24,361 nucleotides of DNA from assembly GCA_035708545.1 (NCBI GenBank), contig DASSSG010000213.1, positions 1-24,361 on the forward strand, read 5' to 3'. This document shows positions 1,188 to 21,380 of the stretch, piece by piece; within the stretch, counting starts at the first letter, position 1, and each line of letters starts with the position of its first letter. Origin of the DNA: Bryobacteraceae bacterium (GTDB lineage: Bacteria > Acidobacteriota > Terriglobia > Bryobacterales > Bryobacteraceae). Position numbers and translations under genes: made by a program. Below the pieces are notes generated by a model. It had not been told where the DNA came from. It ran no database searches and saw nothing but the letters and a program-made list of their open reading frames with translations.

Positions 1188-1327
1188 GCGGACAGCCAAC
1201 CCAACTCTTTGCGCGGCGGTAGGCAAACGGTCTTCGCTGGTCACTTGGCGGAAACCGGACTCGAAGTGGCTTGGCCGCAGAACCCCGTCTGGTAGCTCAT
1301 CTCGGACAGCGATAGTGATCATCGATC

Positions 1328-1369: not shown

Positions 1370-1884
1370 GAAGCTGCGCATTAAACAACTGCTAATGGTC
1401 TTGCAACGGTGTTCGTGAAAAGCCGGGATGCTCCGGGAAACAGAGCATGACACAAAAATCAATCAGGCGGGCTTTCGGGATATGTCGGGAAAGCCTGTCA
1501 AGTACCTTGAGAACGAAACGGAGCACGTCGTCATTTTCAGCGCGAAGACAGGGCCATAACCCAGTGGTAGAAATGCCAGCTTCTCAGGCTGGCTCCGAGT
1601 CCGTCCCTCCCGGCCAATATCCTTCTTCTCCTTTATCGATATCTTCCGAACGGCGAATCGTACTTGGTGTCCACGTTTGGCGAAAAATGCACACGATGCC
1701 ATGCCATAGTGGGCTCCGCTCCAAGACCCCACCGGGAGGGCAACTCGCCCTGGCGGCAGGCAAGCAGCAGATTATAGCTAAGATCAATCTGTGCTCCGGG
1801 GTGGGAACTATTTCCGCGCGGACACGTGTGCCTGGCAGTTCCTCAACGTCAACCGCTTCGTGTATCGTATAGAAACCGGTCAGG

Positions 1885-2679
1885 GTGGTGCTGGATACCG
1901 CCCTGATCTACGCAATGTGGCAGCACGCACCGTTCGCGAATCTCTGTGTGGGAGACACGGAGGTGCATCTGTGGCTGGTGCCGCTGGCCACTTCATCGGA
2001 AACCCTCGCCCTCGCGAGCGCGTTGTTATCGCTCGAGGAGACGGCTCGCGCGCGGCGGTTCCACCTCGAGAAGGACCGGGCCGCGTGTATTGCCAGCCGC
2101 GCCGTTCTGCGCACGCTGATCGCCCAATACACCGGGATGCCTCCACGTGCAATCGTCTTTGAATACGCGTCGACCGGGAAACCACGACTCGCCGGCGGCC
2201 ACGATCTGCACTTCAATGTCGCCCATTCCGGCGCTCTGGCCCTGTACGGATTTGCGCGTCACTACGAACTGGGAGTCGATATCGAATACGTGCGTGAAAC
2301 GCCCGACCTGGCGGCGATAGCGGACCGGTTTCTCAATGCCGGCGAACGCGGTGATCTCGCAAGCATCTCCGGTCCAGCCAAAACACGGGCATTCTATGAT
2401 TGCTGGACGCGGAAGGAAGCCCTGCTGAAGGCGACCGGGGCCGGCATCTCCGCCGGGCTCGACACCTTTCGTGTCTCCCTTCTGCCGTTTGAGCCGGCGC
2501 GGGTGCTCGCCGGAGACGGCGAATTCGCGCCGGACAGGTGGTCGCTGGTTGATGCGGTGCTCGGCGGCAATTACCGAGGTGCGCTGGCCATTCGCGGATC
2601 GGGATGGCATGTGCGGGCGTGCGCCTGTCGTGACGCGGCGCTCTGCTTGACGCGGGGTATCGCTGAGGATGAGCAGTGA
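1885..2679 (+). CDS. Sfp-type 4'-phosphopantetheinyl transferase
   Basis: Motifs VHLW, R..L..Y, GKP, HFNVAHSG, GVDIE and WTRKEALLKATGAG. The start could be GTG 1885 or ATG 1915. The stop overlaps the next start (GTGA). Confidence 0.93.
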   Translation: MVLDTALIYAMWQHAPFANLCVGDTEVHLWLVPLATSSETLALASALLSLEETARARRFHLEKDRAACIASRAVLRTLIAQYTGMPPRAIVFEYASTGKPRLAGGHDLHFNVAHSGALALYGFARHYELGVDIEYVRETPDLAAIADRFLNAGERGDLASISGPAKTRAFYDCWTRKEALLKATGAGISAGLDTFRVSLLPFEPARVLAGDGEFAPDRWSLVDAVLGGNYRGALAIRGSGWHVRACACRDAALCLTRGIAEDEQ

Positions 2680-4241
2680 AGGACCGCAACCGTCGCTGCG
2701 TGTCCGCGTACCACGAAACGGCAGTCCAGATTGGGGAGACTATCCTCGACTCCGGAGGAAACGCGTTCGACGCATTCGTCGCCTCAACCGCCGCGACTTA
2801 CGTCCTCGGAGAAGGTACTACGAGTCTGGCAGGCTGCTTGGGAGCGCTCACGTACAATGCGCGTACGCGGACGGTGGAGTATCTGGACGCGGATTTCAAT
2901 GAACCCAAAACCCGAAAACGCTGGTGGCGCCGAAGCTCGCCGCCGGGCAACACCGTTCCCGTTCCCGGAGCGGTCGCGGGCCTCGAAGCGCTTTCGAGGA
3001 AGTACGGGCGGTTCAGCTTCGCCGACGCGCTCGCTCCCGCAATCGCGCTGGCGCGCACCGGGTTTCACATCACCAAGTATTACGCTTCAGTGATCAGCGC
3101 GCGCTCACCAGTGCTCCAGCGTAGTGAATACGGCCGCCGGACGTTCTTTCCGGAGGAACGTCCGCTGCGCGAGGGCGATGTCCTCCGCCAGCCCGACGTC
3201 GCTGACTTTCTGACTAATATTGCGCGCTACGGCGCGGAGTACATGTACAACGGCCCGTGGGGCCGGCAGTTCGTCGAAACAGTTCGGGAGCGCGGCGGAT
3301 TGATAAAAAACGATGATCTGGCCGCATACACCGTCGAATGGCGGCAGCCGTGGACGATATCGTACCGGGAGCACGAGGTGTATGCCTGCTCCGGCTTCAC
3401 CTTCGGGGGCCTCTGGACGCTCGTGGCGCTAAAGACGCTGGAGAATATAGCTCCCCCATTTCCGGAGCACTTCTCAACTGCGCCCCAGATGCTGGAAGTC
3501 CTGCTCCGGCTTGCTCGCCAGGTTGATTCGGAAGCGTGGCTGTTCAACTACAAACAGCTCGCGAACCGCGAATACGTTCAATCGCGCCTTGCTCCTGAGT
3601 ACGTCGCCAACATCTGGAGCAGGGTGCAGGCAAGCGGATGCGGAAATTCCACCCGGTCGGGAACCGCGCACAGCTACCACGTCATCGCCATCGACCACGA
3701 AGGGAACGCGGTTACCGGGACAAACACGATCGAATCGGCTCCGTGGGCTGATGGGATCTTCGTGCAGGGCATCCCACTGTCGAATGCGCTGAAAATCCCG
3801 TACGGGACCCGTCCGGGAAAGCGGCGGCTCAATCTGCTGTCAATGCACCTGGTCCTGCGTGACGGCGCATTGCGTTTCGCTATCGGCGCATTCGCGAGTT
3901 CGTTGATCGAAGCGTCTCTCCAGTTCCTCGTAAACCTGATCGATTATCGGCTCAGCCCGGCAGAAGCTGCTCGTCTTCCACGCTTCGGCACCATTCCATT
4001 TGAACTGAACTCCGACGGCGACATCGTCTGGTGCGACACGTCGCGGAACTGGCTCGACAAGCGAGTGAACCCCGAGGTCGTGACCACGCTCGAGAGCCGC
4101 GGTCTGTTATTTCACCAGGAGCATATCGATACGGGACTGGGCAACATCGTCGTGGTCAACGAGGATGGCACCTTGCAGTCCGCGACCACTCCCGTTCAGC
4201 AGTCCGAACCCACACGCGCCAACGTGTCGGAGAACTATTGA
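2676..4241 (+). CDS. Gamma-glutamyltransferase-fold Ntn-hydrolase, atypical (Ser nucleophile, gamma-Glu pocket residues replaced), no signal peptide
   Basis: GGT-family motifs GGNAFDAFVA, VPVPGAVAGLEAL..KYG, LAPAIALARTGF, DLAAY, H..AID.EGNAV..T.TIE, PGKR and PRF. The current stop TGA (4239-4241) lies inside the IS end. Confidence 0.85.
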   Translation: MKDRNRRCVSAYHETAVQIGETILDSGGNAFDAFVASTAATYVLGEGTTSLAGCLGALTYNARTRTVEYLDADFNEPKTRKRWWRRSSPPGNTVPVPGAVAGLEALSRKYGRFSFADALAPAIALARTGFHITKYYASVISARSPVLQRSEYGRRTFFPEERPLREGDVLRQPDVADFLTNIARYGAEYMYNGPWGRQFVETVRERGGLIKNDDLAAYTVEWRQPWTISYREHEVYACSGFTFGGLWTLVALKTLENIAPPFPEHFSTAPQMLEVLLRLARQVDSEAWLFNYKQLANREYVQSRLAPEYVANIWSRVQASGCGNSTRSGTAHSYHVIAIDHEGNAVTGTNTIESAPWADGIFVQGIPLSNALKIPYGTRPGKRRLNLLSMHLVLRDGALRFAIGAFASSLIEASLQFLVNLIDYRLSPAEAARLPRFGTIPFELNSDGDIVWCDTSRNWLDKRVNPEVVTTLESRGLLFHQEHIDTGLGNIVVVNEDGTLQSATTPVQQSEPTRANVSENY

Positions 4242-4262
4242 TCTTCGTAAAATAGGGTGACA
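4238..4262 (+). repeat. IS630 left terminal inverted repeat (25 bp)
   Basis: TTGATCTTCGTAAAATAGGGTGACA versus the reverse complement of the right end, TTGAGGTTCGGATAATACAGTGACA: 19/25 identical by manual alignment. Confidence 0.88.
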
Positions 4263-4292
4263 GATTGGACAGTGCTGTGCGAATATGTGGGT

Positions 4293-5310: not shown

Positions 5311-5335
5311 TGTCACTGTATTATCCGAACCTCAA
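5311..5335 (-). repeat. IS630 right terminal inverted repeat (25 bp)
   Basis: TGTCACTGTATTATCCGAACCTCAA, complementary to the left end at 19/25 positions and followed by TA. Confidence 0.88.
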
Positions 5336-7230
5336 TAGATTTTACCGGCGCAATCGCGGGGAATCGCCAGACTGAGGTACTGGTCTCCGTCACGGGCCAT
5401 GATCCTGAGCTGCACCATGCGATCAAGCCAGGTCCTGAGTTCCGCGCCGCCAGGACCGTTGCGCTCGCAGGCGTCGCTATTCAGTGTTTCAATCGAAACG
5501 AATGCAGGATTTTCGTGACCGTTGCGCAGCATCCGCTCGATCGCGACCACCGGGCGCGTCTGGTCGCAGAACTCGTAGACTCGCTTCTCCCAGCCTTGCA
5601 ACTGTGTAGACCGCTGGACCGGATCAGGGCGCATATCGCGGATCATCAGGAGATCCTCGCTCAGCGCATCTGACACCAGGGACGCGCCGCCAGCGTGGGC
5701 CTCGCGCCAGGCGGCAACCCGGTTTTCGATCGGACCTATATAGGCAGACGTGTCCACAGTGTCGGCGTAGTCGTAATCGAAGAAATAAGCGATGTCGGAC
5801 AAATCCGACTCGGGCAGGGGATACAGATATTTGTAGATTTCCATGGGGCGGACTTTCACCATCCCCAGCGAGGCGGGATCCTGAAAGTACGGACTGAAGC
5901 GGTCCAGGCGGATCCTGCCGGTGCCCTCCGGCGGCGGCAGGTGCGCCAGGCACTCCAGCAGCGGCATCATCTCTTCGTAATCGCGAGCGCTTTCGCCGGG
6001 AAACCCGTACAGGAAATTCCAGGTCGGCCGCACGCCGAATTGCCGGCACCACTTGAGCAGCTGCACGTTTTGCAGGGGCGAAACGCCTTTACGCATCAGG
6101 TTGAGAATGTGTTGATGGAGACTCTCGATGCCGGGCTGAATCCATGTGATGCCGGCATCCGCGAGCAGACGGACCTGTTCCTTTGTCAGATTCGCCTTCA
6201 CCTCATAGAAGAAGGTCAGATCCAGCTTTCGGCGCTTCAGCTCGGGCAGAAGATCGCGGAAGTACTGCATGTCAATGATGTTGTCTACTGTCGCGATCTC
6301 ATGCAGCGGGTAATGCGAAACCAGATGATCGAGTTCGGCCAGTACCCGGTCCTTGCTCTTCGCACGATAATGCATCGTCTCCCGGTTCAGGCCGCAAAAT
6401 GTGCAGTGATGTTTGGCGCCCCACCAGCAGCCGCGCGAGGTTTCCATCTGGAGCTTGAGCGGAATTTCCCAGGGAATCGAGCTGTGCTCAAGCTGCAGGA
6501 AGTAATCATGGAATTCCGGAAAGGACAGCGCATCCAGATCCTCGACGGCCCGCGGTGGTGCCGCGAAGACGCTGCCGTTTCCGTTACGGTAAATCAACCC
6601 GGGAATATCGTCCACCGGCCGGCGATGAAGGATGCGGTCCACAAACTCCGGAAAACTTTGGTCCGACTCGCCGGAGAACACGTAGTCCAGAAACGGGAAG
6701 CAGCGGTGCAGTCCGAGGCCCATGCGGTCCTCGCAATTGGCTCCGCCCATGACGGTTGTCTTGGCCGGGTACCACTGTTTCACCGCGCAGGCCAGAGCGA
6801 GCGACGGCAGATTCTGCTCGAACGTGGACGTGAAGCCCACGATTGAATACCGATCCCATGCCGTGGACGCGAGGCAGTAGTCCAGGAACGGTTCCACGAA
6901 CCGCCGCAGCCACACCACGGAATTCAGAACCTCCGGCTCGACAAACCGCTCGCCGCGCAGATAGCGAATGTAGGCGTTGCCGTCCGGTATCTGACCGCGA
7001 AACATATGGTCAGCGAATACCCATTCGCCGATGAAAAGGGTGTGGCTCATATATTCGCTGACCCATTCGTAATACGGCGCGCCGACCCAGTCCGCGAACT
7101 CGATATTGAAGTTCCGGATGTCGCATGGGATTCCGCGCCGGCGTACCGCGGACTGCAGGTTGCCGATTCCGATCGGAGGGCGATCCACGCCGGCGAACGG
7201 CATGTTGATCAGCAGGACGCCACCACTCAT
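5332..7230 (-). CDS. Cobalamin-dependent (class B) radical SAM enzyme, RiPP-maturation type (TIGR03975 / PoyB-PoyC-like), probable C-methyltransferase
   Basis: N-terminal B12-binding region (MPFA..RPPIGIG; VGFTSTFEQN...VMGGANC). ETSRGCWWGAKHHCTFCGLN gives CX7CX2C (Cys codons 6427-29, 6403-05, 6394-96). Also DNIIDM, FYEVKANL, IQPGIESL, WNFLYGFPGE, RLDRFSPYF and C-terminal YLSLA. RBS GGAGGT lies 6 nt before the ATG. The stop lies in the IS right end. Confidence 0.92.
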   Translation of the reverse strand: MSGGVLLINMPFAGVDRPPIGIGNLQSAVRRRGIPCDIRNFNIEFADWVGAPYYEWVSEYMSHTLFIGEWVFADHMFRGQIPDGNAYIRYLRGERFVEPEVLNSVVWLRRFVEPFLDYCLASTAWDRYSIVGFTSTFEQNLPSLALACAVKQWYPAKTTVMGGANCEDRMGLGLHRCFPFLDYVFSGESDQSFPEFVDRILHRRPVDDIPGLIYRNGNGSVFAAPPRAVEDLDALSFPEFHDYFLQLEHSSIPWEIPLKLQMETSRGCWWGAKHHCTFCGLNRETMHYRAKSKDRVLAELDHLVSHYPLHEIATVDNIIDMQYFRDLLPELKRRKLDLTFFYEVKANLTKEQVRLLADAGITWIQPGIESLHQHILNLMRKGVSPLQNVQLLKWCRQFGVRPTWNFLYGFPGESARDYEEMMPLLECLAHLPPPEGTGRIRLDRFSPYFQDPASLGMVKVRPMEIYKYLYPLPESDLSDIAYFFDYDYADTVDTSAYIGPIENRVAAWREAHAGGASLVSDALSEDLLMIRDMRPDPVQRSTQLQGWEKRVYEFCDQTRPVVAIERMLRNGHENPAFVSIETLNSDACERNGPGGAELRTWLDRMVQLRIMARDGDQYLSLAIPRDCAGKIY

Positions 7231-7263: not shown

Positions 7264-7821
7264 TCAGCCGGACAGCGCCTCCAGCCTGACCTGGATTTTC
7301 TCGAGGCGGTTGATGGTAGGCTGCACACTCGGCAGCAATCGTTCGAGCTCAGCCCGATAAGAATCGAACGCGCGCTCGCTGGCTCCGGCAACGCGGGTCG
7401 CGGTTGAAACGTCAGACTTGCCGAATCGACGCACATAGGCCTGAATTTCCTGGCCCTGCGCTATCAGTCGGATATCTTCCTGCACAGAATCAGCAAGCTG
7501 CTTACCTTTCTCCAGCAGATCCCGCACATACTGCCTGCACTCGGGAAGGCAGGCTTCCCGTTCGTGCTCGTCGATGGTTTCGAGATAACGCAAATAAGCC
7601 TCGATGTCAGTCGGCATCCGTTCGAGAAATTGCAGCACCGCGGAGTGCTCTCCAAGCGCATGCGTGTATTTGGACAGCAGCGGTCCTTTAATCGAGGAAT
7701 CGGCGTGAATATTCGCCGGCGCGGACACCGCACCTGACGACATCGACGCGAAGTAATCTGAGTAACCCTGAAGATACGCGCACCATATCCGTTCCTCCGG
7801 AGACTGCGACGAACCGATCAT
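7264..7821 (-). CDS. Hypothetical protein, 185 aa, apparently alpha-helical
   Basis: Its ATG overlaps the TGA of the upstream NRPS (ATGA), and it fills the gap before the radical SAM gene. No family motif recognised. Confidence 0.7.
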   Translation of the reverse strand: MIGSSQSPEERIWCAYLQGYSDYFASMSSGAVSAPANIHADSSIKGPLLSKYTHALGEHSAVLQFLERMPTDIEAYLRYLETIDEHEREACLPECRQYVRDLLEKGKQLADSVQEDIRLIAQGQEIQAYVRRFGKSDVSTATRVAGASERAFDSYRAELERLLPSVQPTINRLEKIQVRLEALSG

Positions 7822-10800
7822 TGCTTCATCTCCTGCGCATCATCCTGAAGCAACCGTCTCAGCAGGACGTCCACGTCCGCATCGGAAAGCTGATTCAGAT
7901 CCGGGGTCTGTTCTGTGATGTGAGGAATCGACCCCGCAGGGCTGGCGCCTTGAGACGTGTGCTCGTCGATTGCCCTGGCGAGTGCGTCTAGTCTCGGGTT
8001 TTCGAACAAAGTGCGGAGAGGTAAGTCGACTCGGAACACGTCACGTATGCGAGAAACGACCTGCGTTGCCAGTAGCGAGTGGCCTCCGAGCTCGAAGAAG
8101 TTGTCATTGGCACCGATCGTTTGAAGCTTGAGAACGCCGGCCCAGATTCCCGCCAGATTCACCTCTGTGGCTGTGCTCACCGGCACGGGCGGAGCGCCGT
8201 CGACCGCACGATTTGTGCCGGGACGGGGAAGCGCTCTGCGATCCAGTTTCCCGCTCGCTGTGAGTGGAAACGTGTCCAGCTGCACGATTGCGGAGGGAAC
8301 CATATACTCCGGCAGCTTCTCCGCCACGAATATGCGAAGCTCGGCCGGGGATGCGGCGGCACCCTCGTGCATCAGCACGTACGCGACCAGCCGCTGGGCT
8401 CCGGGCGCATCTTCAAGCACCGTGCATACTGCCTGGCGCACGGAGGGGTGGTGAGTCAGGGCCGTCTCCACTTCGCCCAACTCGATCCGGTACCCGCGTA
8501 GTTTAACCTGAGTATCGATCCGGCCCAGGAACTCAATGTTCCCATCCGGGAGATACCGTGCCCTGTCGCCGGTCTTGTACAAACGCGCGCCGGGAGACTC
8601 GCTGAAGGGATCGGAGGTAAATCGCTCGGCTGTAAGTTCTGGCTGATTTCTGTAGCCGCGGGCCACACAGTCTCCGCCGATGTGCAACTCGCCTGGAACA
8701 CCGACGGGTGCCGGACTGCCGAAGCGGTCGAGGATATAAAGCCGAGCGTTGGCGATGGGACGGCCGACAGGTGGCACGCCCGGCCACTGACGGGGTGCTC
8801 CCGTCAAACGGAATTCGCTGACGACGTGTGCTTCCGTCGGCCCGTATTGATTCGACAGCACGCACCCGTCGAGTCTCTCGAACCAGAGAACGATCTCCGG
8901 CGTAACCAGCAACTGCTCGCCGGCAGTGATGACCTCGCGCAAAGCCGTCGGGACGATCCCGCTGCCCGCTCCCAGCTCGGCCAGCTGGCGCAGCGCTACG
9001 AATGGAAGGAACAGGCGCTCAACGCCTGAGTCCGCGATCAGGCGGAGGAGTTCCCTGGCATCCCGCCGCTGCTCCTCGGAGACAAGGACGAGAGTGCCCC
9101 CGGAACAGAGGCAAGTGAAGATCTCCTGGAATGAGACGTCGAAGCTCAGCGGCGAAAACTGGAGTGTGCGCGCGGGCGCGGCGAGGGCCGTTGTCCGAAG
9201 CTGCCAGGTGATCAGATTGACCAGTGCCCGGTGCGGCATTTCAACGCCTTTTGGCACTCCTGTCGAACCCGACGTGTACATTACGTATGCCAGGCTGTTG
9301 GAGTCGGCGCCGCTTTCCACGTCTTCGGCGGATTCGCGGGCAATCTCCGGCCAGTCGCGATCCAGACAGACCACCCGCGCCTCGGACGCCGGCAGCCGCT
9401 TCGTCAGCTCTTCCTGCGTCAGCAGAACGGTAGCGCGAGAATCAGAAAGCATGAACGCGAGCCGCTCATTTGGATACGCCGCATCGAGGGGCACGTACGC
9501 CGCGCGCGCCTTGAGGATGCCGAGCAGGCCCACAATGGCCTCAAACGAGCGTTCCGCACACAGCGCGACCAAAGGCCCCGGCCCGGCGCCCAGCCTGTGC
9601 AGATAACGCGCCACCTGGTTTGCCCGCCGGCTGAGTTCCCGATACGTCAACTCCCGGCCGCCGAACCGCAATGCCACGGCATTCGGTGTGCGCTCGACCT
9701 GTGCTTCAAACAACTGCTCTACAGTACTGGTTCGCGGATACTCGGCGGCAGTCGTATTCCAGTCCATCAGAACCTGCCGCCGTTCCAATTCCGTCAGCAG
9801 CGGCAGTTCCGAGATGCGCCGGTCCGGATGCTCGACTATGGCTTCAAGCAGTGTCTGGAAGTGACCGACCATGCGCGCGATGGTGGCTCGATCAAAAAGA
9901 TCGGTGCTGTACTCGATTGACCCCTCGATCGCTCCGGAGCCCTCGAACAGATGGAAACCGAGATCCACAATCGATGTGCCTTTGGCTACATCGAACGATC
10001 CCGGTTCGGGCGCCGGGCGGCCGGCGCAGGCGTCTGCTCCCGTTCCTGTGCTGAACACCTGGAACAGAACCTGAAACAACGGATTCCGGCTCAGGTTGCG
10101 TTCCGGCTGAAGCTCCTGAACCAGCCTCTCGAACGGCAGGTCCTGATGAGCATAGGCTCCAAGTGCGACTTCGCGGACGCGCTGCAGCGCATCACGGAAG
10201 GTCCGGTTGCCCGACAGATTGACTCGCATCACCAACGTATTCACGAAAAATCCGATCAGGCCTTCGATCTCGCGGCGGGTGCGATTTGCCATCGGCGAAC
10301 CGACTACGATGTCGTTCTGACCTGAATACCGGTGCAGCAGGATCTGAAATGCGGTGAGGAGCGTGATGAAGAGGGTCGTACCTTCCCGGCGGGCTAGTGC
10401 TCGCACCGCGTCGGACAGCCGTTCCGGCAAGCGGATGTTAAGGTGGCTGCCGACGTAGCGTTCAACCGGCGGGCGCGGTCTGTCGGTCGGAAGCTCCAGG
10501 ACCGGCAAGCCGTCCAGTTGCCGCTTCCAATACCGGAGCTGCTCCTCCAATACCTCACCTTGCAGCCTCTGCCGCTGCCAGACGGCGAAGTCGGCGTACT
10601 GGATTGGCAGCTCGGGCAGAGGCGAAGGCTTTCCCTCCGCGAAAGCGGCGTAAAGCGCCATCAGCTCGCGGAAGAGCACACCCATGGACCAGCCGTCCGC
10701 AACGATGTGGTGAATGGTCAGAAGGAACAGGTGATCGTCGTCGCTAAGCCGTACGACACCGGCCCGCACCAGAGGGCCCTTGGCCAGGTCGAACGGCTGA

Positions 10801-11258
10801 ATGGCTTGCGTGGTCGCCAGGCGCAGCGCTTCCTCATCTCGCCCGCCGGGCGGAAGATGCGTGAGGTCGGTCACGCTCAGCGGTATCGCGAGTGCGGGCG
10901 CGATAATCTGTACCGGCTCGCCGTTCACCGTTCCGAAGGTCGTGCGCAGGGCTTCGTGGCGGCGCACAATTTCGTTGAGACTGCGTTCGAGCGCACGAAC
11001 ATTGAGCCACGCTTTCCAGTGAAATGCGTTGTCGACGTTGTAGAACGCGCTCCCGCCCGCGAGCTGGTCCAGAAACCAAAGGCGCTCCTGAGCAAACGAC
11101 AGCGGCGGCGCGGTCGAGGGCTCACGGCGCGGGATCGGCGCGAGCGCCGAGTCCCGGCCCTCCTGCTTCAGCAGCCTTGAGAGCAGATCGCGCTTGCCCT
11201 GAGGCAGGGCCGCGATCCGTTGCGCGGCCGCCGTGCGGATCTTCGTGTTGGGGGTCAT
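7818..11258 (-). CDS. NRPS module C-A-T, proline-like specificity, no TE
   Basis: C: PLSFAQERLWFL and HHIVADGWS. A: YTSGSTGVPKG, FDVSFQE, NQYGPTE, YKTGD, RIELGEVE and SGKLDR. T: NFFELGGHSL. Manually extracted pocket code DVQFIAQVVK. ATGA overlaps at both ends. Confidence 0.95.
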   Translation of the reverse strand: MTPNTKIRTAAAQRIAALPQGKRDLLSRLLKQEGRDSALAPIPRREPSTAPPLSFAQERLWFLDQLAGGSAFYNVDNAFHWKAWLNVRALERSLNEIVRRHEALRTTFGTVNGEPVQIIAPALAIPLSVTDLTHLPPGGRDEEALRLATTQAIQPFDLAKGPLVRAGVVRLSDDDHLFLLTIHHIVADGWSMGVLFRELMALYAAFAEGKPSPLPELPIQYADFAVWQRQRLQGEVLEEQLRYWKRQLDGLPVLELPTDRPRPPVERYVGSHLNIRLPERLSDAVRALARREGTTLFITLLTAFQILLHRYSGQNDIVVGSPMANRTRREIEGLIGFFVNTLVMRVNLSGNRTFRDALQRVREVALGAYAHQDLPFERLVQELQPERNLSRNPLFQVLFQVFSTGTGADACAGRPAPEPGSFDVAKGTSIVDLGFHLFEGSGAIEGSIEYSTDLFDRATIARMVGHFQTLLEAIVEHPDRRISELPLLTELERRQVLMDWNTTAAEYPRTSTVEQLFEAQVERTPNAVALRFGGRELTYRELSRRANQVARYLHRLGAGPGPLVALCAERSFEAIVGLLGILKARAAYVPLDAAYPNERLAFMLSDSRATVLLTQEELTKRLPASEARVVCLDRDWPEIARESAEDVESGADSNSLAYVMYTSGSTGVPKGVEMPHRALVNLITWQLRTTALAAPARTLQFSPLSFDVSFQEIFTCLCSGGTLVLVSEEQRRDARELLRLIADSGVERLFLPFVALRQLAELGAGSGIVPTALREVITAGEQLLVTPEIVLWFERLDGCVLSNQYGPTEAHVVSEFRLTGAPRQWPGVPPVGRPIANARLYILDRFGSPAPVGVPGELHIGGDCVARGYRNQPELTAERFTSDPFSESPGARLYKTGDRARYLPDGNIEFLGRIDTQVKLRGYRIELGEVETALTHHPSVRQAVCTVLEDAPGAQRLVAYVLMHEGAAASPAELRIFVAEKLPEYMVPSAIVQLDTFPLTASGKLDRRALPRPGTNRAVDGAPPVPVSTATEVNLAGIWAGVLKLQTIGANDNFFELGGHSLLATQVVSRIRDVFRVDLPLRTLFENPRLDALARAIDEHTSQGASPAGSIPHITEQTPDLNQLSDADVDVLLRRLLQDDAQEMKQ

Positions 11259-12181
11259 TTCGGTTTGCTAAGCCGCAGAATGCGATAGCTCAGAACGCCG
11301 GATTGCATGTCGCGATAAACCTGCGAGCCGGGCATGCTGAGGAACTCGCCAACCACTTCGAACCGGTTCCGGTCTCCACCGAATGCCTGGAAACGGGCGG
11401 GCGAAGACTCGTCACACGCCAGGAGCACGTTATGCGTGATGTCCCGGTCCACTTCCACCTGGAGCCCTGTAGCGCGCAGCCAAACGAACCACCTGGCGGA
11501 GAAATCGGCCGGCATGCAGTCGCTGTACAGAAACTTGCCGCCGGGCTTCAGCAGCCGGAAGACTTCCTTATAAAAAGCCTCGACGTCCAGGTAGTGATTT
11601 GAGGATTCCAGGTTGGTCACAACGTCGAAGTACCCGCTGCGGAACGGCAGTTGCTCGGCGTCGGCCTGTACGAACGATACGTTCGCATACTTGTGCGTCC
11701 GCTGGCAGTACGCGATCGGCCCGAAGGACAGATCAGCTCCGACGAAGCTTCGTGGCTTGAAGTATTCCTCTGCGACGAAGACGACGGCGCCGCGGCCGCA
11801 ACCGACATCCAGTATGTTCAGCCCGTCGATCGGGCAATCGCCGATGAGTTCAAGCACCAGACGGACGGCGTTCTTGCCGAGCAACCGTTCGGGTAATCGG
11901 ACCACCGAGTACTCCGGGCTGCCGTCCGGCACATAACCCAGATTCATGAAACACGCGTATCGTCCGACGGGCGTCGAATCGAGTTGCCGGCTGGCGGTGT
12001 CATAGAGGCGCTGGGTGACCGCGCGCAATTCGGCTGGAGAACGCGGATCTCCGAATTCGAGGGGCTCGGGCGCCTCGGCGGCCACCGGCGAAGCCGACCG
12101 GCGCGCCACCAGCCGCTCGAAGCACTCGCGTTTCTCGGGAGTGAGTTTAGCCAGGCGCGACAATACATCGTGCGACATCAT
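11255..12181 (-). CDS. Stand-alone class I SAM-dependent methyltransferase (probable O-methyltransferase, phthiotriol/fatty-acid O-MT-like) with N-terminal docking-like helix
   Basis: FMNLGY, ILDVGCGRG, GADLS, FVQADAEQLPF, FDVVTNLESSNHY and LLKPGG. ATGA overlaps with the PKS and the NRPS. Confidence 0.88.
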   Translation of the reverse strand: MMSHDVLSRLAKLTPEKRECFERLVARRSASPVAAEAPEPLEFGDPRSPAELRAVTQRLYDTASRQLDSTPVGRYACFMNLGYVPDGSPEYSVVRLPERLLGKNAVRLVLELIGDCPIDGLNILDVGCGRGAVVFVAEEYFKPRSFVGADLSFGPIAYCQRTHKYANVSFVQADAEQLPFRSGYFDVVTNLESSNHYLDVEAFYKEVFRLLKPGGKFLYSDCMPADFSARWFVWLRATGLQVEVDRDITHNVLLACDESSPARFQAFGGDRNRFEVVGEFLSMPGSQVYRDMQSGVLSYRILRLSKPK

Positions 12182-15100
12182 CCCTGTGACTCCTGATGTT
12201 TCGCGAGTAACGCTTTGACTTCGCTCTCAGGAAGCCCCTCCACGAAATCGAGCAGCTCTGCGATCCTGCTCTCTTCCTCCGGCGCGGCCGCGGTCTCAAT
12301 CGCAGCAGCGACCGCCGCGACCGTCGGGGCCTGAAAGAGCTGATGTACCGGTAAGTCCACGCCGAACTTCTCACGGAATCGCGAAATCATCTGGATGGCA
12401 AGAAGGGAGTGGCCGCCGAGATCGAAAAAGTTATCGTGAATGCCGACGGGCTCGATGCCGAGCAGATCCTGCCATACTTCAGCGACCACCCGTTCACGAT
12501 CGTCGCGAGGAGCAAAGTACTCGTTGACTAATGTGGGCCGCGGATGCCGAGGAACGCCGGCGGGTGGTTTCGCGTCGAGGGTGTACTCGCTCGGCTCCGC
12601 CCACAGCCACTGGTTCATGCGGGCATCGGGATCTCCGGTGGCCACGACCACTTGCCCCGGCAGGTGCTCCAGAACGCGTCGAAAAGCCGCGACCGCTTCG
12701 TCCGCCGAGAGCTCATCAGAGTCCCCGGAGCGACGAGCACTGTGGGGAAACACCCACTCGTCCCAGTTCACGCTTGTCCACGGCGCCGTGCCGGCAGAGT
12801 TGTGGCGAGCCGCGAAGGCATCCAGGAAGTTGTTCGCTGCCGAATACGCTGCAAATCCGGCTCCCACCTGAAACGACGCGAACGAGGAGAGCAGAACGCA
12901 GAAGTCGACTCCCGGTTCGAGAAGCGCCTCGAGGATCATCGCTCCCCGCGCCTTCGAGCCGAAGTGTTCCTCACAGCTGTCTCGGCTGAGCTGCGTCAAT
13001 GGGACGAACGCTTCGGGCGAGATCTGTCCAGCCGCATGGATCACGCCGTGCAGTTCGCCAAAACGCTCATAGATCGCGGCCAGCGCCGCCCCCATCTGGT
13101 CTGCGTCGGAGACGTCGGCGGTCAACACTAACACCGTCCCGCCGAGCTGCTCGATCTGCAGCAGCCGCCGGATCTTGCTGCTGACGTCGTCCTCGCCATG
13201 CAGTGCGAGCCAGGGCTCCCATTCATGCCGCTCGGGAAATGCCGAGCGGCCACTCAGGACAACCCTGGCTTGCACGGAACGCGCAAGCTCCTCGGCAAGG
13301 GCGAGTCCGATCTGTCCCAACCCGCCGGTGATCCAATATACGCCGTTCAGCCGCAGTGTCCTGGGTCTCTCGGCCGGGGCAGCAAGCGGGAGCTGCTCGA
13401 AACCCTGGACGAGGCGGGTTTCGCCGCGGTATGCGACCACCGTGTCCCGTTCCGCTGAGGTCAACTCCGCAATGATACTGTTGGCCACGCCGTCGTCCAG
13501 GGCGACGTCGATGCTGCAACACCGGATTGCAGGATATTCGTACGCCGCCACGCGGCAGACCCCCAGCAGAGTCGCTTTGCCGGGATGCAGCCGCTCGTCT
13601 TCGAGCAGTGCGTGGAGATGGTTTGACACGATTCCGACCTGAATGTGATTCAGGAGATTTTGTCTTTCGAGCGCCTGTACCAGAGCAACCACACTGTAGA
13701 AGCCGAACTCCTGGCACTCGTCAAAGGACGTCTCCTCGGCGGCCACAGTCCAGAGATGTGCGACAACGTCGGGCAGGCGGTCAGTGATCCGAAGTTCGTC
13801 GAGCAGGCTCTCATAATCTTTGCGGTCGGCGGGGCGCACGGCAAAGGCTTCGCTGCCCAGGCGGGCGTACTCGGTGCCAGGCATCACGACGATATTGGTG
13901 TGTCCCAGTTGCTCGAGTTGTCTGACCATAGCCGGCCCGACCCCGCAAGCATCGGCGAGGATCAGCCAACGCAGCGGCCGGCCGGCATTGTCGAGACGGT
14001 CGTTTGCGAGTGGGGAGACCTGCCATGAGGGTATGTAGAGCCAATCGGCCACATCCCGCCCGGGGCCGACTTCGGCCGCATCCGCCTCTGCGGCTTGCTC
14101 CGGCACGCCGATCCAATAGGTCTGCCGTTCGTACGGATATGTCGGCAGCTCGATCCGTCGGCGAGGCTCGCGGGAATGAACGGCCGGCCAGTCAGGCGTG
14201 ATGCCATTCAGCCACAGTCGGCCAAGCGCTTCGAACAATACTGCGGATTCCGCCTGTCTGTCTTGTGCCCCCGGCATGGACGTGAGCACTGTCTGACCTG
14301 ACCAACTGTCCTGCTGCTGCCGCAAGAGCATGCCGAGTGTGCGTCCGGGTCCGACTTCAAGGAACACGCGCTCGCTATCCGTCAGCAGTTCGCGCAGTCC
14401 ATCGGAGAAACGGACCGTTTGGCGAACGTGCCATCCCCAGTAGCTCGGGTCGCGCGCCTCATCGGGCGTGATCCATGTGCCCGTGACATTCGAAATATAC
14501 GGGATCTGCGGTGCGTTGAGACTGATGTTCTGCACCCGTTCGGTGAATTGCCAGACGATCGGCTCCATCATCGCAGAGTGGAACGCGTGCGATGTGTGCA
14601 GCCGCTTTGCCGCGATGCCCGCAGCAGCGAGCTGCCCGGCTGCCGCATCGATCGCGCCTGCAGGCCCGGAGAGCACAATCAGCGAGGGCGCGTTCACGGC
14701 CGCCACACTGATGCCGTTCGTGAGCAACGGCTGCGCTTCCGCCTCCGAGAGCGATACCGCCAGCATCGCCCCTGTGGGCATAGTGTCCATCAGCCGCCCG
14801 CGCGCCGCCACGAGGGCCACAGCGTCCTCAATGGAGAGCACGCCCGCCAGACACGCGGCCACCCACTCACCAATGCTGTGGCCTGTCATCGCCGCCGGAT
14901 AGATTCCCCACGACATCCACAGCGCGGCCAACGCGTACTCGATCGTAAATAGTGCCGGTTGTGCAATGGCTGTGCGCTGAAGCCTCTCATCCCACAGCTG
15001 CGGCGGGGCAGCGGAGGACGAACCGGCGTCGGCGGGGTACAGCAGTTCGCGCAGGTCCACGCGCAAATGCGGACGGAACAAGTCGGCGCAGGCATCGAGA

Positions 15101-16788
15101 GCTTCCTGGAAGGTGGGTTCAGTCCCGTAAAGCTCCTGGCCCATACCGATGTATTGCGTGCCCTGGCCCGGAAAGAGGAACACGACGGGACGGTTCTTCG
15201 CATCGGTTACCGCGGTGAAAACGCGCTGGGGATCGCGCTGCTCCAGAGCTGTGACCGCATCCATGGGATCGAATGACGAGCAAACCACAGCGCGGCGGTG
15301 GGCGAAGGGCTTCCGGCCCACCTGGGTCGTGTACGCAACATCGGGGATCGAGATGTCCTCGTGCCGGGCCAGGTGAGCGGCGAGATTATCCGTCGCGTTC
15401 TCGAGCGCTTGCTCGCCTCGGGCGGAGAGCAGGATCAGCTGCGAAGCGCGGGTAACCGCCGGCGCCTCTGCCGGAGGCGCCTCTTCCAGGATCACATGTG
15501 CGTTCGTTCCACCGACGCCGAATGCGCTTACGCCTGCGCGTCGCGGTCGGCCGTCAGACTGCCACTTCTTCAACGCGCTATTCACATAGAACGGGCTTTT
15601 ATCGAAATCGATCTTCGGATTCGGCTTTGTGAAGTTCAGGCTCGCCGGCAGCAGCTTATGTTCGAGTGACAGCACCGTCTTGATCAGGCCCGTAACGCCG
15701 GCCGCTGCGTCCAGATGCCCGACGTTGCTCTTCACCGAACCGATCGCGCAGAAGCCCCGCTCAGGCGTGCTGGCGCGGAACACTTCGGTGAGGGCGGTGA
15801 TCTCGATTGGATCGCCAAGCGGTGTAGCCGTACCGTGTGTCTCGACGTAGCTGATGGTGGCCGGATCGACGCCGGCCATAGCCTGCGCCATTGCGATCAC
15901 CTGCGCCTGCCCTTCGACACTCGGGGCCGTGTAACCGACCTTGCCCGAGCCGTCATTGTTGACAGCCACGCCGCGGATGATTGCGCGGATGTTGTCGTTA
16001 TCGCCCAGCGCATCGGAAAGCCGCTTCAGCAGAACCAGGCCGACACCGTTGCCGCCCCAGAAACCCTGCGCGGAGGCATCGAACGGACGGCAATGGCCAT
16101 CGGGGGAAACGATACCGCCAGGCTGGTAGTAATAGCCTTTGCGCTGTGGGACGTGAATGGCGGCGCCGCCCGCGAGCGCCATATCGCACTGGTAGCTCCA
16201 CAGGCTGTGACACGCCATCGCCACGGCCACCAGGGAAGTTGAGCAGGCCGTCTGCACCACGACGCTCGGGCCCCTGAGGTTCAACTTGTATGACACCCGG
16301 GTCGCAAGGTGATCCTTGTCATTCGCCACCATCAACTGGAATTCATCGACGAGTCCCAGCCGGTCTCCGGCGAACAGGAGGTTATAGAGATAGCTGCTGG
16401 CCGCGGTGCCGGCGAAAACACCGATAAGGCCCGGATACGACTCTGGGTTGTATCCGGCGTTCTCTATGCATTCCGAGGCGCATTCCAGGAAGATCCGGTG
16501 TTGCGGGTCGGTGATCTCGGCCTCGCGCGCGCTGAAGCCGAAGAATGAGGCGTCAAACCGGTCGACTCCGTCGAGAATGCCGCCCGCGTTGACATAGTTC
16601 GGATCAGCGATGATCGCGGGATCGACGCCCGCGGCCTCCATCTCCTCGGGGGAGAAGCGCGAGGAGCATTCCACACCCCGCCGGAGGCTGTCCCAGAACT
16701 GCTCCACGTTGCGAGCGCGGGGAAACCGCCCGCTCATGCCGATGATCGCAATGCTCTCGACTGCTGAATCCTGTTTGCCGTTATCCAT
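12178..16788 (-). CDS. Type I PKS module KS-AT-KR-ACP (malonyl-CoA extender; no DH or ER)
   Basis: KS: VQTACSTSL (Cys 16243-45), ETHGTAT and SNVGHL. AT: GHSIGE (Ser 14875-77) and HAFH. KR: TGGLGQIG, K, SS and YSAAN (Tyr 12844-46). Carrier: NFFDLGGHSL. Confidence 0.95.
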   Translation of the reverse strand: MDNGKQDSAVESIAIIGMSGRFPRARNVEQFWDSLRRGVECSSRFSPEEMEAAGVDPAIIADPNYVNAGGILDGVDRFDASFFGFSAREAEITDPQHRIFLECASECIENAGYNPESYPGLIGVFAGTAASSYLYNLLFAGDRLGLVDEFQLMVANDKDHLATRVSYKLNLRGPSVVVQTACSTSLVAVAMACHSLWSYQCDMALAGGAAIHVPQRKGYYYQPGGIVSPDGHCRPFDASAQGFWGGNGVGLVLLKRLSDALGDNDNIRAIIRGVAVNNDGSGKVGYTAPSVEGQAQVIAMAQAMAGVDPATISYVETHGTATPLGDPIEITALTEVFRASTPERGFCAIGSVKSNVGHLDAAAGVTGLIKTVLSLEHKLLPASLNFTKPNPKIDFDKSPFYVNSALKKWQSDGRPRRAGVSAFGVGGTNAHVILEEAPPAEAPAVTRASQLILLSARGEQALENATDNLAAHLARHEDISIPDVAYTTQVGRKPFAHRRAVVCSSFDPMDAVTALEQRDPQRVFTAVTDAKNRPVVFLFPGQGTQYIGMGQELYGTEPTFQEALDACADLFRPHLRVDLRELLYPADAGSSSAAPPQLWDERLQRTAIAQPALFTIEYALAALWMSWGIYPAAMTGHSIGEWVAACLAGVLSIEDAVALVAARGRLMDTMPTGAMLAVSLSEAEAQPLLTNGISVAAVNAPSLIVLSGPAGAIDAAAGQLAAAGIAAKRLHTSHAFHSAMMEPIVWQFTERVQNISLNAPQIPYISNVTGTWITPDEARDPSYWGWHVRQTVRFSDGLRELLTDSERVFLEVGPGRTLGMLLRQQQDSWSGQTVLTSMPGAQDRQAESAVLFEALGRLWLNGITPDWPAVHSREPRRRIELPTYPYERQTYWIGVPEQAAEADAAEVGPGRDVADWLYIPSWQVSPLANDRLDNAGRPLRWLILADACGVGPAMVRQLEQLGHTNIVVMPGTEYARLGSEAFAVRPADRKDYESLLDELRITDRLPDVVAHLWTVAAEETSFDECQEFGFYSVVALVQALERQNLLNHIQVGIVSNHLHALLEDERLHPGKATLLGVCRVAAYEYPAIRCCSIDVALDDGVANSIIAELTSAERDTVVAYRGETRLVQGFEQLPLAAPAERPRTLRLNGVYWITGGLGQIGLALAEELARSVQARVVLSGRSAFPERHEWEPWLALHGEDDVSSKIRRLLQIEQLGGTVLVLTADVSDADQMGAALAAIYERFGELHGVIHAAGQISPEAFVPLTQLSRDSCEEHFGSKARGAMILEALLEPGVDFCVLLSSFASFQVGAGFAAYSAANNFLDAFAARHNSAGTAPWTSVNWDEWVFPHSARRSGDSDELSADEAVAAFRRVLEHLPGQVVVATGDPDARMNQWLWAEPSEYTLDAKPPAGVPRHPRPTLVNEYFAPRDDRERVVAEVWQDLLGIEPVGIHDNFFDLGGHSLLAIQMISRFREKFGVDLPVHQLFQAPTVAAVAAAIETAAAPEEESRIAELLDFVEGLPESEVKALLAKHQESQG

Positions 16789-21376: not shown

Positions 21377-21380
21377 AACT

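What the first reader, a model, noticed from the sequence alone, without database searches (positions are those of the whole stretch)
2676..4241. GGT-fold enzyme with Ser nucleophile and no gamma-glutamyl pocket, coupled to the cluster PPTase
Seen, by manual alignment to the E. coli GGT motifs: TTHYSVVDKDGN becomes SYHVIAIDHEGN (nucleophile Thr391 to Ser, codon 3672-3674). The D-F-R-E motif becomes D-A-D-F (Arg114 to Asp, 2892-2894). NNQMDDF becomes SNALKIP (Asp433 lost), KRPLSSM becomes KRRLNLL (Ser462/463 lost), and GSPGG becomes GAFAS (oxyanion Gly-Gly altered). There is no signal peptide. Known: these residues bind the gamma-glutamyl group, and GGT-like proteins have been repurposed in secondary metabolism (e.g. 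LmbA in lincomycin). Inference: this is a different amidase, acylase or peptidase. It overlaps the PPTase (GTGA) and originally abutted the radical SAM gene, so it may release, trim or activate the NRPS product.
Basis: partly seen in the sequence, partly recalled or inferred. Interest (0 to 1): 0.72.

Follow-up and report, generated by a model that had tools for sequence, protein, structure and literature searches.

The report
Serine-type GGT-fold hydrolase of NRPS clusters
This gene encodes an intact enzyme with the gamma-glutamyltransferase fold that uses serine instead of threonine and has lost the glutamate-binding pocket; its relatives sit almost always next to peptide-synthetase genes, so it is probably an undescribed helper enzyme of natural-product assembly lines, with its substrate still unknown.

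Summary
ORF 2676-4241 is an intact 521-aa PF01019 protein (E 8e-69) that scores below the GGT equivalog cut-off. Aligned to E. coli GGT, it has Ser333 at Thr391, Asp73 at Arg114, and has lost Asn411, Gln430, Asp433, Ser462/463 and Gly483/484. It has no signal peptide and overlaps the PPTase gene (GTGA). The AF2 model (pLDDT 90.5) has the GGT fold.

The NRPS link is supported by comparative genomics, not by the overlap. In one large clade of 42-55% identical homologues, about 20 independent loci from several phyla lie beside NRPS genes that end in a carrier domain. Sister clades (0 of about 16 loci) do not. The gene was not found in 440 other Acidobacteriota genomes.

Three caveats apply:
- A Ser nucleophile ("H-S") is common in a large uncharacterised PF01019 radiation, so it is not unique.
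- The window copy is a long branch of unresolved placement.
- Many NRPS-linked relatives look exported, which argues against direct release from the carrier.

Best reading: a pathway-dedicated, self-processing Ser-Ntn amidohydrolase that matures a free peptide intermediate. Chain release is the main rival. I class it as a new variant of a known kind. The scan has not reported this on other DNA.

The parts
2676..4241 (+). GGT-fold Ser-Ntn hydrolase gene (521 aa; predicted subunits 37.2 and 20.8 kDa after self-cleavage)
   Evidence: PF01019 E 8e-69; AF2 pLDDT 90.5 with the GGT fold; 125 of 135 clade-conserved columns kept; subunit masses
3669..3674 (+). His332-Ser333: predicted autoprocessing site and N-terminal nucleophile (aligns with Gln390-Thr391 of E. 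coli GGT)
   Evidence: His 117/121 and Ser 108/121 in the subfamily; low-pLDDT linker at 321-330 just before it
2892..2894 (+). Asp73 at the position of the gamma-glutamyl alpha-carboxylate binder Arg114
3831..3836 (+). Asn386-Leu387 at the positions of Ser462-Ser463
3894..3899 (+). Ala407-Ser408 at the positions of the oxyanion-hole residues Gly483-Gly484
2665..2669 (+). GAGGA ribosome-binding site, 6 nt before the GTG start
   Evidence: read from the sequence
1885..2679 (+). Sfp/HetI-type 4'-phosphopantetheinyl transferase, translationally coupled (GTGA) to the hydrolase gene
   Evidence: PF01648 and PF22624; NF042922 169 bits, below cut-off. A PPTase also lies beside the homologue in P0006, L015, L019 and L099
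4238..5337 (+). IS630-family element (HTH ORF 4257-4811, DDE_3 ORF 4844-5308) between the hydrolase gene and the convergent radical SAM gene
5332..7230 (-). B12-binding radical SAM C-methyltransferase (TIGR03975), last gene of the convergent NRPS-PKS operon
7818..24359 (-). NRPS-PKS operon: A(PRMT-like+NMT)-T; C-A(NMT)-T; KS-AT-KR-ACP; stand-alone MT; C-A-T. No TE, R or terminal C domain is visible
   Evidence: homologous genes (40-53% identity) flank the GGT-like gene in L016 and L071-L076

Best explanation
The gene encodes a cytoplasmic accessory enzyme dedicated to the adjacent N-methylating NRPS-PKS pathway. It is a GGT-fold N-terminal-nucleophile hydrolase.

Inferred mechanism, by homology:
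1. It cleaves itself between His332 and Ser333, giving subunits of about 37 and 21 kDa.
2. The freed Ser333 then attacks an acyl (amide) carbonyl.
3. The resulting acyl-enzyme is resolved by water or an amine.

Shown: the gamma-glutamyl pocket is gone, so the substrate is not glutathione.

Most likely role (inference): a late, off-line maturation step on a released peptide-polyketide intermediate. This would be removal of an N- or C-terminal pro- or protecting moiety, or hydrolysis of a terminal amide. It would be analogous in logic to PvdQ, ClbP/XcnG or MelJ.

Confidence that it is a pathway-dedicated non-GGT hydrolase is about 0.8. Confidence in the specific 'off-line amide maturation' role is about 0.45.
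For: The protein is an intact member of the fold.
- PF01019 E 8e-69 and AF2 pLDDT 90.5.
- His-Ser, Asp340, Gly343-Asn344, Thr351, Arg383 and Arg436 are all kept. 125 of 135 columns conserved in the NRPS-linked clade are retained.

The gamma-glutamyl binders are lost. The same genome carries a canonical GGT with every one of them (C528).

The link to NRPS pathways rests on these points.
- In clades c30, c9 and c54, about 20 independent loci have the homologue directly after, or within a few kb of, NRPS or PKS genes. They come from Acidobacteriota, Gemmatimonadota, Alphaproteobacteria and many soil metagenomes. Several gene pairs have overlapping stop and start codons.
- These clusters share the window's gene set: KS-AT-KR-ACP PKS, stand-alone MT, C-A(NMT)-T, and an A domain with a PRMT-like insert.
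- Sister clades (c10, c14, c15) have no NRPS neighbour in about 16 loci.
- The gene was not found in 40 close relatives or in 400 genomes sampled from the phylum. This fits arrival with the cluster.

The off-line role is favoured for three reasons.
- By a crude hydropathy and positive-inside call, 18/30 (c30) and 8/9 (c9) NRPS-linked members carry signal-peptide-like or N-in anchors. Their catalytic domain would then be outside the cytoplasm, where it cannot reach a carrier domain.
- Characterised Ntn hydrolases act on free substrates by acyl transfer; all are amidohydrolases except the LmbA/Ant6 C-C hydrolases (PMC5519988).
- PvdQ is a precedent for a periplasmic Ntn hydrolase that matures an NRPS product (PMC6206403).
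Against: No substrate, product or activity is known for any member of the subfamily.

The window copy lacks the N-terminal extension that nearly all NRPS-linked relatives have (a signal or anchor, or the 'F-x-Q-P-A-E' motif). It sits on a long branch (0.74-0.77). The quick IQ-TREE places it outside the NRPS-linked clade (SH-aLRT 97). The AU test does not reject joining them (p 0.35). Recruitment here could therefore be independent.

In the window it is convergent to the NRPS operon, not part of it.

Sub-clade c54 looks cytoplasmic: 30 members have no TM segment and 15 have an N-out anchor. Localisation is therefore mixed and does not point to one compartment.

No N-terminal pro-moiety module has been seen, because no cluster start was recovered.

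The topology calls are crude. No SignalP or TMHMM was available.
Confidence: 0.5

Rival explanations
1. Trans-acting chain terminator. After self-processing, Ser333 takes the finished chain from the last carrier domain's thioester as an acyl-enzyme. It then passes the chain to water or an amine, replacing the missing thioesterase.
For: Every NRPS gene found directly upstream of a homologue ends in a T domain, with no TE, R or terminal C domain. Stop and start codons overlap in L015, L071, L073 and L075. No convincing PF00975 gene was found in the window's genome, which is only 77% complete. Sub-clade c54 and the window copy look cytoplasmic. GGTs are natural transacylases.
Against: Most c30 and c9 members look exported. 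A separate PF00975 thioesterase is present in at least four such clusters: P0009, L072, L076 and L099. In L075 an NRPS gene follows the hydrolase gene. No Ntn hydrolase is known to act on carrier-bound thioesters. Only parts of clusters were seen, so TE domains may lie elsewhere. In the window the gene is outside the operon.
Confidence: 0.2
2. Self-resistance or salvage enzyme. It hydrolyses the cluster's own (or a competitor's) peptide to an inactive form, or recycles shunt products.
For: Cluster-linked hydrolases with variable localisation are typical of resistance functions. The broader subfamily consists of secreted or lipoprotein hydrolases, some with a PDZ fusion, that are unrelated to NRPS clusters and look like general peptide amidases.
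Against: In P0009 and L072 a glyoxalase/Ble-like gene, a more usual resistance candidate, sits two genes downstream. Tight translational coupling to the last NRPS gene is more typical of biosynthetic partners. There are no data on bioactivity.
Confidence: 0.12
3. Building-block enzyme of the LmbA/Ant6 type. It acts on a small precursor, by C-C or C-N hydrolysis, to make an unusual monomer for one adenylation domain.
For: LmbA is a GGT homologue repurposed in secondary metabolism (PMC5519988). LmbA structures are among the Foldseek hits, with TM about 0.8. A PhyH-type oxygenase is an immediate neighbour in L073, L074, L085 and the P0062 contig (L104 ends within one), and could prepare such a precursor.
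Against: Identity to LmbA is only 18-19%. The nucleophile is Ser with a preceding His, not Asp-Thr. None of the alkyl-proline pathway genes is present in the window. Exported relatives do not fit monomer supply.
Confidence: 0.08
4. Bystander. It is a housekeeping or decaying GGT paralogue that merely lies beside the cluster and its PPTase.
For: It is convergent to the operon, an IS630 lies next to it, it sits on a long branch and it has no N-terminal extension.
Against: The ORF is intact and 93% of clade-conserved columns are kept. A 94% identical copy has the same PPTase coupling in another sample. It was not found in 440 other genomes of the phylum. The clade shows a strong NRPS association. 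A canonical GGT is present elsewhere in the genome.
Confidence: 0.07

Closest known systems
Canonical bacterial gamma-glutamyltransferase (E. coli GGT, PDB 2dbu/2e0w; TIGR00066)
   Same: Same Pfam family and the same alpha-beta-beta-alpha Ntn fold (TM about 0.8). The position of the nucleophile, Thr409 (as Thr351), Asp398, Gly401-Asn402 and Arg513 are conserved.
   Different: About 26% identity. Ser replaces the Thr nucleophile, and His replaces Gln before it. Arg114, Asn411, Gln430, Asp433, Ser462/463 and Gly483/484 are lost, and the lid loop is deleted. There is no signal peptide. The score is below the equivalog cut-off.
LmbA/Ant6 GGT homologues (lincomycin and anthramycin; PDB 6j3i; PMC5519988)
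   Same: A GGT-fold enzyme without gamma-glutamyl activity that has been recruited into a secondary-metabolite cluster and is expected to self-process.
   Different: 18-19% identity. LmbA/Ant6 use Asp-Thr, and Ser is not tolerated in LmbA. They cleave a C-C bond of a free pyrroline monomer and are linked to the alkyl-proline genes, not to a T-ending NRPS gene.
PvdQ (pyoverdine) and other pro-moiety-removing hydrolases (ClbP, XcnG, SfmE)
   Same: Working analogy only. PvdQ is a self-processing Ser-Ntn hydrolase encoded with an NRPS pathway. It trims a released precursor, often outside the cytoplasm (PMC6206403).
   Different: PvdQ belongs to the penicillin-acylase family (PF01804), not PF01019. 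ClbP and XcnG are S12 peptidases. No homology was detected to any of them.
Class IV cephalosporin acylase / YwrD-type and Thermoplasma GGT-related proteins (PDB 2nlz, 2i3o)
   Same: GGT-fold proteins with altered substrate pockets, some cytoplasmic. Foldseek TM is 0.78-0.87.
   Different: 18-24% identity. By established knowledge they use a Thr nucleophile. They have no NRPS context.

Membership tests
PF01019 / GGT-fold Ntn hydrolases (MEROPS T03 fold) | Profile match over the whole domain, above the gathering score | tested here: met
   233 bits against a cut-off of 27; profile 2-508 of 512
PF01019 / GGT-fold Ntn hydrolases (MEROPS T03 fold) | Four-layer alpha-beta-beta-alpha fold superposable on solved GGTs | tested here: met
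   AF2 pLDDT 90.5. Foldseek E 1e-33 to 3.5e-34 and TM 0.79-0.85 to 4y23 and 2e0w
PF01019 / GGT-fold Ntn hydrolases (MEROPS T03 fold) | Hydroxyl nucleophile at the conserved processing site; autoproteolysis into two subunits | not testable with these tools
   Ser333 occupies the site. Whether it is cleaved needs protein work. Ser supports weak processing in Ant6 T430S but none in LmbA T421S
Canonical gamma-glutamyltransferase (TIGR00066 equivalog, EC 2.3.2.2 / 3.4.19.13) | Equivalog HMM score at or above the curated cut-off | tested here: not met
   205 bits against 358; NF007187 121 bits against 990
Canonical gamma-glutamyltransferase (TIGR00066 equivalog, EC 2.3.2.2 / 3.4.19.13) | Thr nucleophile plus the gamma-glutamyl binders Arg114, Asn411, Gln430, Asp433 and Ser462/463 | tested here: not met
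   The residues are Ser, Asp, Glu, Ala, a deletion, and Asn/Leu. The paralogue on C528 has the full canonical set
Canonical gamma-glutamyltransferase (TIGR00066 equivalog, EC 2.3.2.2 / 3.4.19.13) | Export signal (periplasmic or extracellular enzyme) | tested here: not met
   The domain starts at residue 8, with no hydrophobic N-terminus. An in-frame stop upstream excludes a longer ORF
LmbA-like C-C hydrolases | Asp/Glu-Thr processing motif and co-location with the alkyl-proline genes (LmbB1/B2/W/X/Y types) | tested here: not met
   The motif is His-Ser. None of those families is among the window's ORFs. Identity is 18-19%
NRPS-linked 'G-S-H-S-Y-H' GGT-like clade (defined here: c30+c9+c54) | Subfamily signature (His-Ser-Tyr-His/Gln, Arg-Arg-Leu, Gly-x-x-Ser-x-Ser) and at least 40% identity | tested here: met
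   42-55% identity; signature columns kept
NRPS-linked 'G-S-H-S-Y-H' GGT-like clade (defined here: c30+c9+c54) | Phylogenetic placement inside the clade | tested here: inconclusive
   FastTree gives a polytomy at the clade's base. The quick IQ-TREE puts it outside (SH-aLRT 97). The AU test of joining them gives p 0.35
NRPS-linked 'G-S-H-S-Y-H' GGT-like clade (defined here: c30+c9+c54) | Gene lies immediately after a T-ending NRPS gene (or after PhyH) | tested here: not met
   In the window it is convergent to the operon and follows a PPTase gene. It is still within the same cluster, about 3.6 kb from the last NRPS gene, of which 1.1 kb is IS630
NRPS-linked 'G-S-H-S-Y-H' GGT-like clade (defined here: c30+c9+c54) | N-terminal extension (signal or anchor, or the F-x-Q-P-A-E motif) | tested here: not met
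   Absent in the window copy and in its 94% twin P0006
Thioesterases (PF00975) and other known NRPS release domains | Alpha/beta-hydrolase TE, R or CT domain signature | tested here: not met
   PF01019 is the only Pfam hit

The most novel reading that the evidence does not exclude
A clade of serine-nucleophile GGT-fold Ntn hydrolases is the chain-terminating enzyme of a widespread family of thioesterase-less N-methylating NRPS-PKS assembly lines in uncultured soil bacteria. It would take the finished chain from the last carrier domain and pass it to water or an amine. That would be a release chemistry not known for any Ntn hydrolase.
Probability: 0.2. Interest if true: 0.85.

Novelty: new variant of a known kind. 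Interest (0 to 1): 0.62.

Why it matters
GGT-fold enzymes repurposed in natural-product pathways are so far known only from the LmbA/Ant6 C-C hydrolases. This work defines a second, much larger recruitment. It is a Ser-nucleophile clade without a gamma-glutamyl pocket, and it is a signature gene of a family of N-methylated, statine-type NRPS-PKS clusters found in several phyla of mostly uncultured bacteria.

The clade gives genome miners a marker gene for these clusters. It also gives enzymologists a naturally Ser-dependent GGT scaffold. Depending on the assay result, it will be either a new pro-moiety or amide-trimming enzyme, or a new way of off-loading assembly lines that lack a thioesterase.

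The work also shows that 'H-S' GGT homologues form a large uncharacterised part of PF01019 that databases currently name 'gamma-glutamyltransferase'.

Tried and rejected
- A complex prediction of the processed hydrolase (residues 1-332 and 333-521) with the T domain and tail of the last NRPS gave no verdict. It is not used as evidence either way.
- The first attempt at that job failed because the machine was busy.
Whole clusters could not be walked.
- No complete cluster start was recovered. The Longimicrobium MAG has 94 C-domain hits on fragmented contigs. Whether these assembly lines lack a TE altogether, or begin with a pro-moiety module, remains open.
- Plasmid collection: only conventional GGTs at 29% identity or less, and no close homologue, for example near known didemnin-type clusters.
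- Literature searches for a GGT-like enzyme in NRPS release, prodrug activation or a Ser-nucleophile GGT found nothing relevant. The aetokthonostatin cluster has a cis TE and no GGT-like gene.
- NCBIfam has no specific model for this subfamily or for the wider H-S clades.
- The promoter scan of 1150-4300 found nothing. The inverted-repeat finder missed the imperfect IS630 ends.
- DNA of the 94% twin was not available, so no dN/dS could be computed.
- A decaying pseudogene was rejected: the ORF is intact and 125 of 135 conserved columns are kept.
- A canonical GGT was rejected.
Full report
THE GENE. The window is a whole 24.4-kb contig (C213) of a 77%-complete MAG, which an earlier follow-up note calls an uncultured soil acidobacterium. 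ORF 2676-4241 (+) is open and encodes 521 aa. It starts at a GTG six bases after a GAGGA, and this start overlaps the TGA of the upstream Sfp/HetI-type PPTase gene 1885-2679 (GTGA). An in-frame stop just upstream excludes a longer N-terminus. The GGT domain begins at about residue 8, with no hydrophobic segment, so the protein is predicted to be cytoplasmic.

Downstream lies an IS630-family element (HTH and DDE_3 ORFs, with imperfect terminal repeats). After it comes the 3' end of a convergent operon: a B12 radical SAM C-methyltransferase, a 185-aa unknown, NRPS C-A-T, a stand-alone MT, PKS KS-AT-KR-ACP, NRPS C-A(NMT)-T, and NRPS ...A(PRMT-like+NMT)-T. No TE, R or terminal C domain is visible.

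CHECK OF THE OBSERVATION. The protein matches PF01019 end to end (E 8e-69). It reaches only 205 bits on the GGT equivalog TIGR00066, whose cut-off is 358. I took E. coli GGT from a public record (L077; 580 aa, with TTHYS at 391, so standard numbering holds). I aligned it with 146 subfamily sequences and 64 more distant sequences. phmmer against PDB 2e0w gives the same register.
- Thr391->Ser333 (AGC, 3672-3674)
- Gln390->His332
- Arg114->Asp73 (2892-2894)
- Thr409->Thr351 (kept)
- Asn411->Glu353
- Gln430->Ala371
- Ser462/463->Asn386/Leu387
- Gly483/484->Ala407/Ser408

Asp433 and the Tyr444 lid loop fall in a deletion, so they are not substituted one for one. The AF2 model (40-row alignment) has pLDDT 90.5 and pTM 0.92, with a low-confidence linker just before Ser333. 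Its best structural matches are the GGT precursors 4y23 and 2e0w, cephalosporin acylase 2nlz, Thermoplasma 2i3o and LmbA 6j3i, at TM 0.76-0.82 normalised to the model (0.68-0.85 to the target).

THE SERINE IS NOT UNIQUE. The 120 best homologues (41-55% identity, plus one at 94%) share a G-[ST]-H-S-[YF]-[HQ] motif. His332 is present in 117 of 121 and Ser333 in 108 of 121, with Thr in the other 13. More distant PF01019 clusters at 150-200 bits are also mostly 'x-H-S-D/A/S' (53 Ser, 11 Thr) and also lack Arg114. None of these has a specific NCBIfam model.

Ser-nucleophile 'H-S' GGT homologues are therefore a large, uncharacterised radiation that databases label 'gamma-glutamyltransferase'. In the characterised GGT-type enzymes the nucleophile is Thr. 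Ser supports only weak self-processing in Ant6 T430S and none in LmbA T421S (PMC5519988). The same genome has a fully canonical GGT on contig C528 (Arg114, TTHYS, Asn411, Asp433, Ser-Ser, Gly-Gly) and two other Thr-type paralogues.

THE DECISIVE EVIDENCE: GENOMIC CONTEXT OF RELATIVES. I looked up 12 metagenomic homologues.
- P0006 (94% identity) has the same PPTase-hydrolase coupling.
- P0009, P0010, P0014, P0018, P0022, P0030, P0039, P0057, P0062 and P0086 all lie in NRPS or NRPS-PKS clusters.
- Only P0060 does not.

Further NRPS-adjacent members came from other sources. GTDB genomes added L015 (Rubritepida), L016 (Longimicrobium), L019 (Sphingomonadales) and L055 (an alphaproteobacterium). 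A metagenome-contig scan added L089, L090, L093, L095 and L099 as new NRPS-adjacent loci, plus L104, a short contig with only PhyH visible upstream; L101 is the same contig as L085.

Typical gene orders are:
- (PKS KS-AT-KR-ACP, MT,) NRPS C-A(PRMT-like+NMT)-T -> hydrolase, often with overlapping stop and start codons (L015, L071, L073, L075);
- NRPS -> PhyH -> hydrolase (L074, L085, the P0062 contig; L104 shows only PhyH -> hydrolase);
- NRPS -> hydrolase -> free carrier protein -> glyoxalase/Ble-like -> PF00975 thioesterase (P0009, L072);
- TE -> C-A(NMT)-T -> hydrolase, with a convergent PPTase (L099).

Every upstream NRPS gene examined ends in a T domain. The flanking genes are homologues (40-53% identity) of the window's own NRPS, PKS and MT genes, so this is one family of clusters.

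On a 146-row tree, all NRPS-linked members fall in one 93-row group (sub-clades c30, c9 and c54). The sister clades c10, c14 and c15 contain Planctomycetota, Aminicenantes, Bdellovibrionota and Pacearchaeota sequences, which are often lipoproteins or PDZ fusions. These clades have no NRPS neighbour in about 16 loci. Four loci in the NRPS group were uninformative: they were short contigs, or flanked by transposases as in L086.

The gene was not found in 40 genomes of the same family and order (best hits 35% identity or less, which are ordinary GGTs). It was also not found in 400 genomes sampled from the phylum at E<=1e-70. This patchy distribution fits acquisition together with the cluster.

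POSITION OF THE WINDOW COPY. The window copy and its twin sit on a long branch (0.74-0.77). FastTree leaves them in a polytomy at the base of the NRPS-linked group. A quick IQ-TREE puts them weakly (86) with c15 and outside the NRPS-linked clade (SH-aLRT 97). An AU test does not reject holding them together with the NRPS-linked clades (p 0.35).

The copy keeps 125 of 135 columns that are at least 85% conserved in the NRPS-linked clade, so it is not decaying. It lacks the N-terminal extension of its relatives, and it is convergent to the operon rather than directly after a T-ending NRPS gene. Membership in the clade is therefore likely but unproven. Membership in the cluster is supported by the PPTase coupling, which recurs in P0006, L015, L019 and L099.

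HOW IT MOST LIKELY WORKS. What is shown: the fold, the catalytic-site residues, the loss of the gamma-glutamyl pocket, and the NRPS association of the clade. What is inferred by homology: self-cleavage between His332 and Ser333 into subunits of 37.2 and 20.8 kDa, followed by acyl-enzyme chemistry on Ser333.

Which acyl group it acts on is open. A crude hydropathy and positive-inside analysis gave these calls:
- c30: 18 of 30 have signal-peptide-like or N-in anchors.
- c9: 8 of 9 have signal-peptide-like or N-in anchors.
- c54: 30 have no TM segment and 15 have an N-out anchor followed by an Arg/Lys cluster and a conserved F-x-Q-P-A-E-x-P motif. These are cytoplasmic or tethered to the inner face of the membrane.

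An exported catalytic domain cannot reach a carrier domain. At least four clusters also carry a separate thioesterase. I therefore favour an off-line step on a released intermediate. This could be removal of a pro- or protecting group, or hydrolysis of a terminal amide. The logic is that of PvdQ (a periplasmic Ntn deacylase of the pyoverdine precursor; PMC6206403) or of ClbP/XcnG/MelJ (named from established knowledge).

The main rival is trans-acting chain release. It is attractive because of the consistent position after a T-ending NRPS gene and the absence of any visible cis release domain. I give it about 0.2. Resistance or salvage, LmbA-type monomer formation, and a bystander gene are less likely.

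COMPARISON AND NOVELTY. The protein is a member of PF01019 and of the GGT fold. It is not a canonical GGT, since three defining features were tested and not met. It is not LmbA-like. It has no sequence relation to PvdQ or ClbP, which it may resemble only in role.

I found no paper describing a GGT-fold enzyme with a natural Ser nucleophile, or one linked to NRPS termination or maturation. The library is incomplete, so this is absence of evidence only. I class it as a new variant of a known kind: a repurposed GGT-fold Ntn hydrolase in secondary metabolism. The novel part is the clade-wide NRPS association shown here.

LIMITS.
- No whole cluster was recovered, so both 'no thioesterase anywhere' and 'no pro-moiety module' are untested.
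- Topology calls were made without SignalP or TMHMM.
- Tree placement of the window copy is unresolved.
- Loci were found through patterns and look-ups that favour longer contigs.
- Kin are not independent, so the counts are descriptive and not statistical.

Noticed in passing
P0190-P0270; not in the window: A very large set of PF01019 proteins (5,468 representative clusters at E<=1e-10 to the query) includes many with an 'x-H-S-D/A/S-x-V-V-x-V-D-x-x-G-N' site. They have a Ser nucleophile and no Arg114. No NCBIfam model covers them and they are annotated as gamma-glutamyltransferase.
   Followed up: partly
L073:11898-12683, L074:5002-6135, L085:8862-10031, P0062 contig, L104:1-747: A PhyH-family Fe/2OG oxygenase gene lies directly next to the GGT-like gene in at least four independent clusters. 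This suggests a two-enzyme step (oxidation, then hydrolysis) at the end of the pathway.
   Followed up: partly
L072:11808-12155, L071:7941-8228, P0009 contig: A free-standing carrier protein of about 115 aa follows the GGT-like gene in three clusters. In two of them a glyoxalase/Ble-like gene and a PF00975 thioesterase come next.
   Followed up: no
L071:6108-7790 and L071:10001-11686: One cluster carries two GGT-like paralogues, separated by a carrier-protein ORF and a 505-aa protein with no Pfam hit.
   Followed up: no
c54 homologues, e.g. P0038, P0039, P0044 and P0017, P0029, P0062: A conserved N-terminal 'F-x-Q-P-A-E-x-P' motif is preceded either by a TM helix followed by an R/K cluster (N-out, catalytic domain cytoplasmic) or by a short amphipathic helix. 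It may be a membrane-tethering or docking element. The window copy lacks it.
   Followed up: partly
L019:453-1868: The Sphingomonadales homologue (T domain -> GGT-like -> PPTase) has one in-frame stop codon. This is either a pseudogene or an assembly error.
   Followed up: no
L099:1677-3200 and 17038-18534; L073:15670-17133; P0009 contig: Subtilase (Peptidase_S8) genes recur near three of these clusters. L099 also carries a glycosyltransferase and TylF/CmcI-type methyltransferases.
   Followed up: no
window 1188-1884: A 700-bp gap lies between the apiosidase-like gene and the PPTase gene. It holds only a low-complexity ORF (1447-1872), and no sigma-70-like promoter was found by the consensus scan.
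   Followed up: partly
G000:C528, C700, C441 (L001-L003): The genome has one fully canonical GGT and two Thr-type paralogues with altered pockets. With the window gene that makes four full-length PF01019 genes (a fifth, partial match lies on C486), of which the window gene is the only Ser-type.
   Followed up: partly
G041 (Longimicrobium MAG holding L016): This 6.7-Mb MAG gives 94 condensation-domain matches, an unusually NRPS-rich genome for Gemmatimonadota.
   Followed up: no
window 4238-4241 and 5332-5337: The last codon and the stop of the GGT-like gene (Tyr-TGA), and the stop of the radical SAM gene, lie within the ends of the IS630 element.
   Followed up: partly
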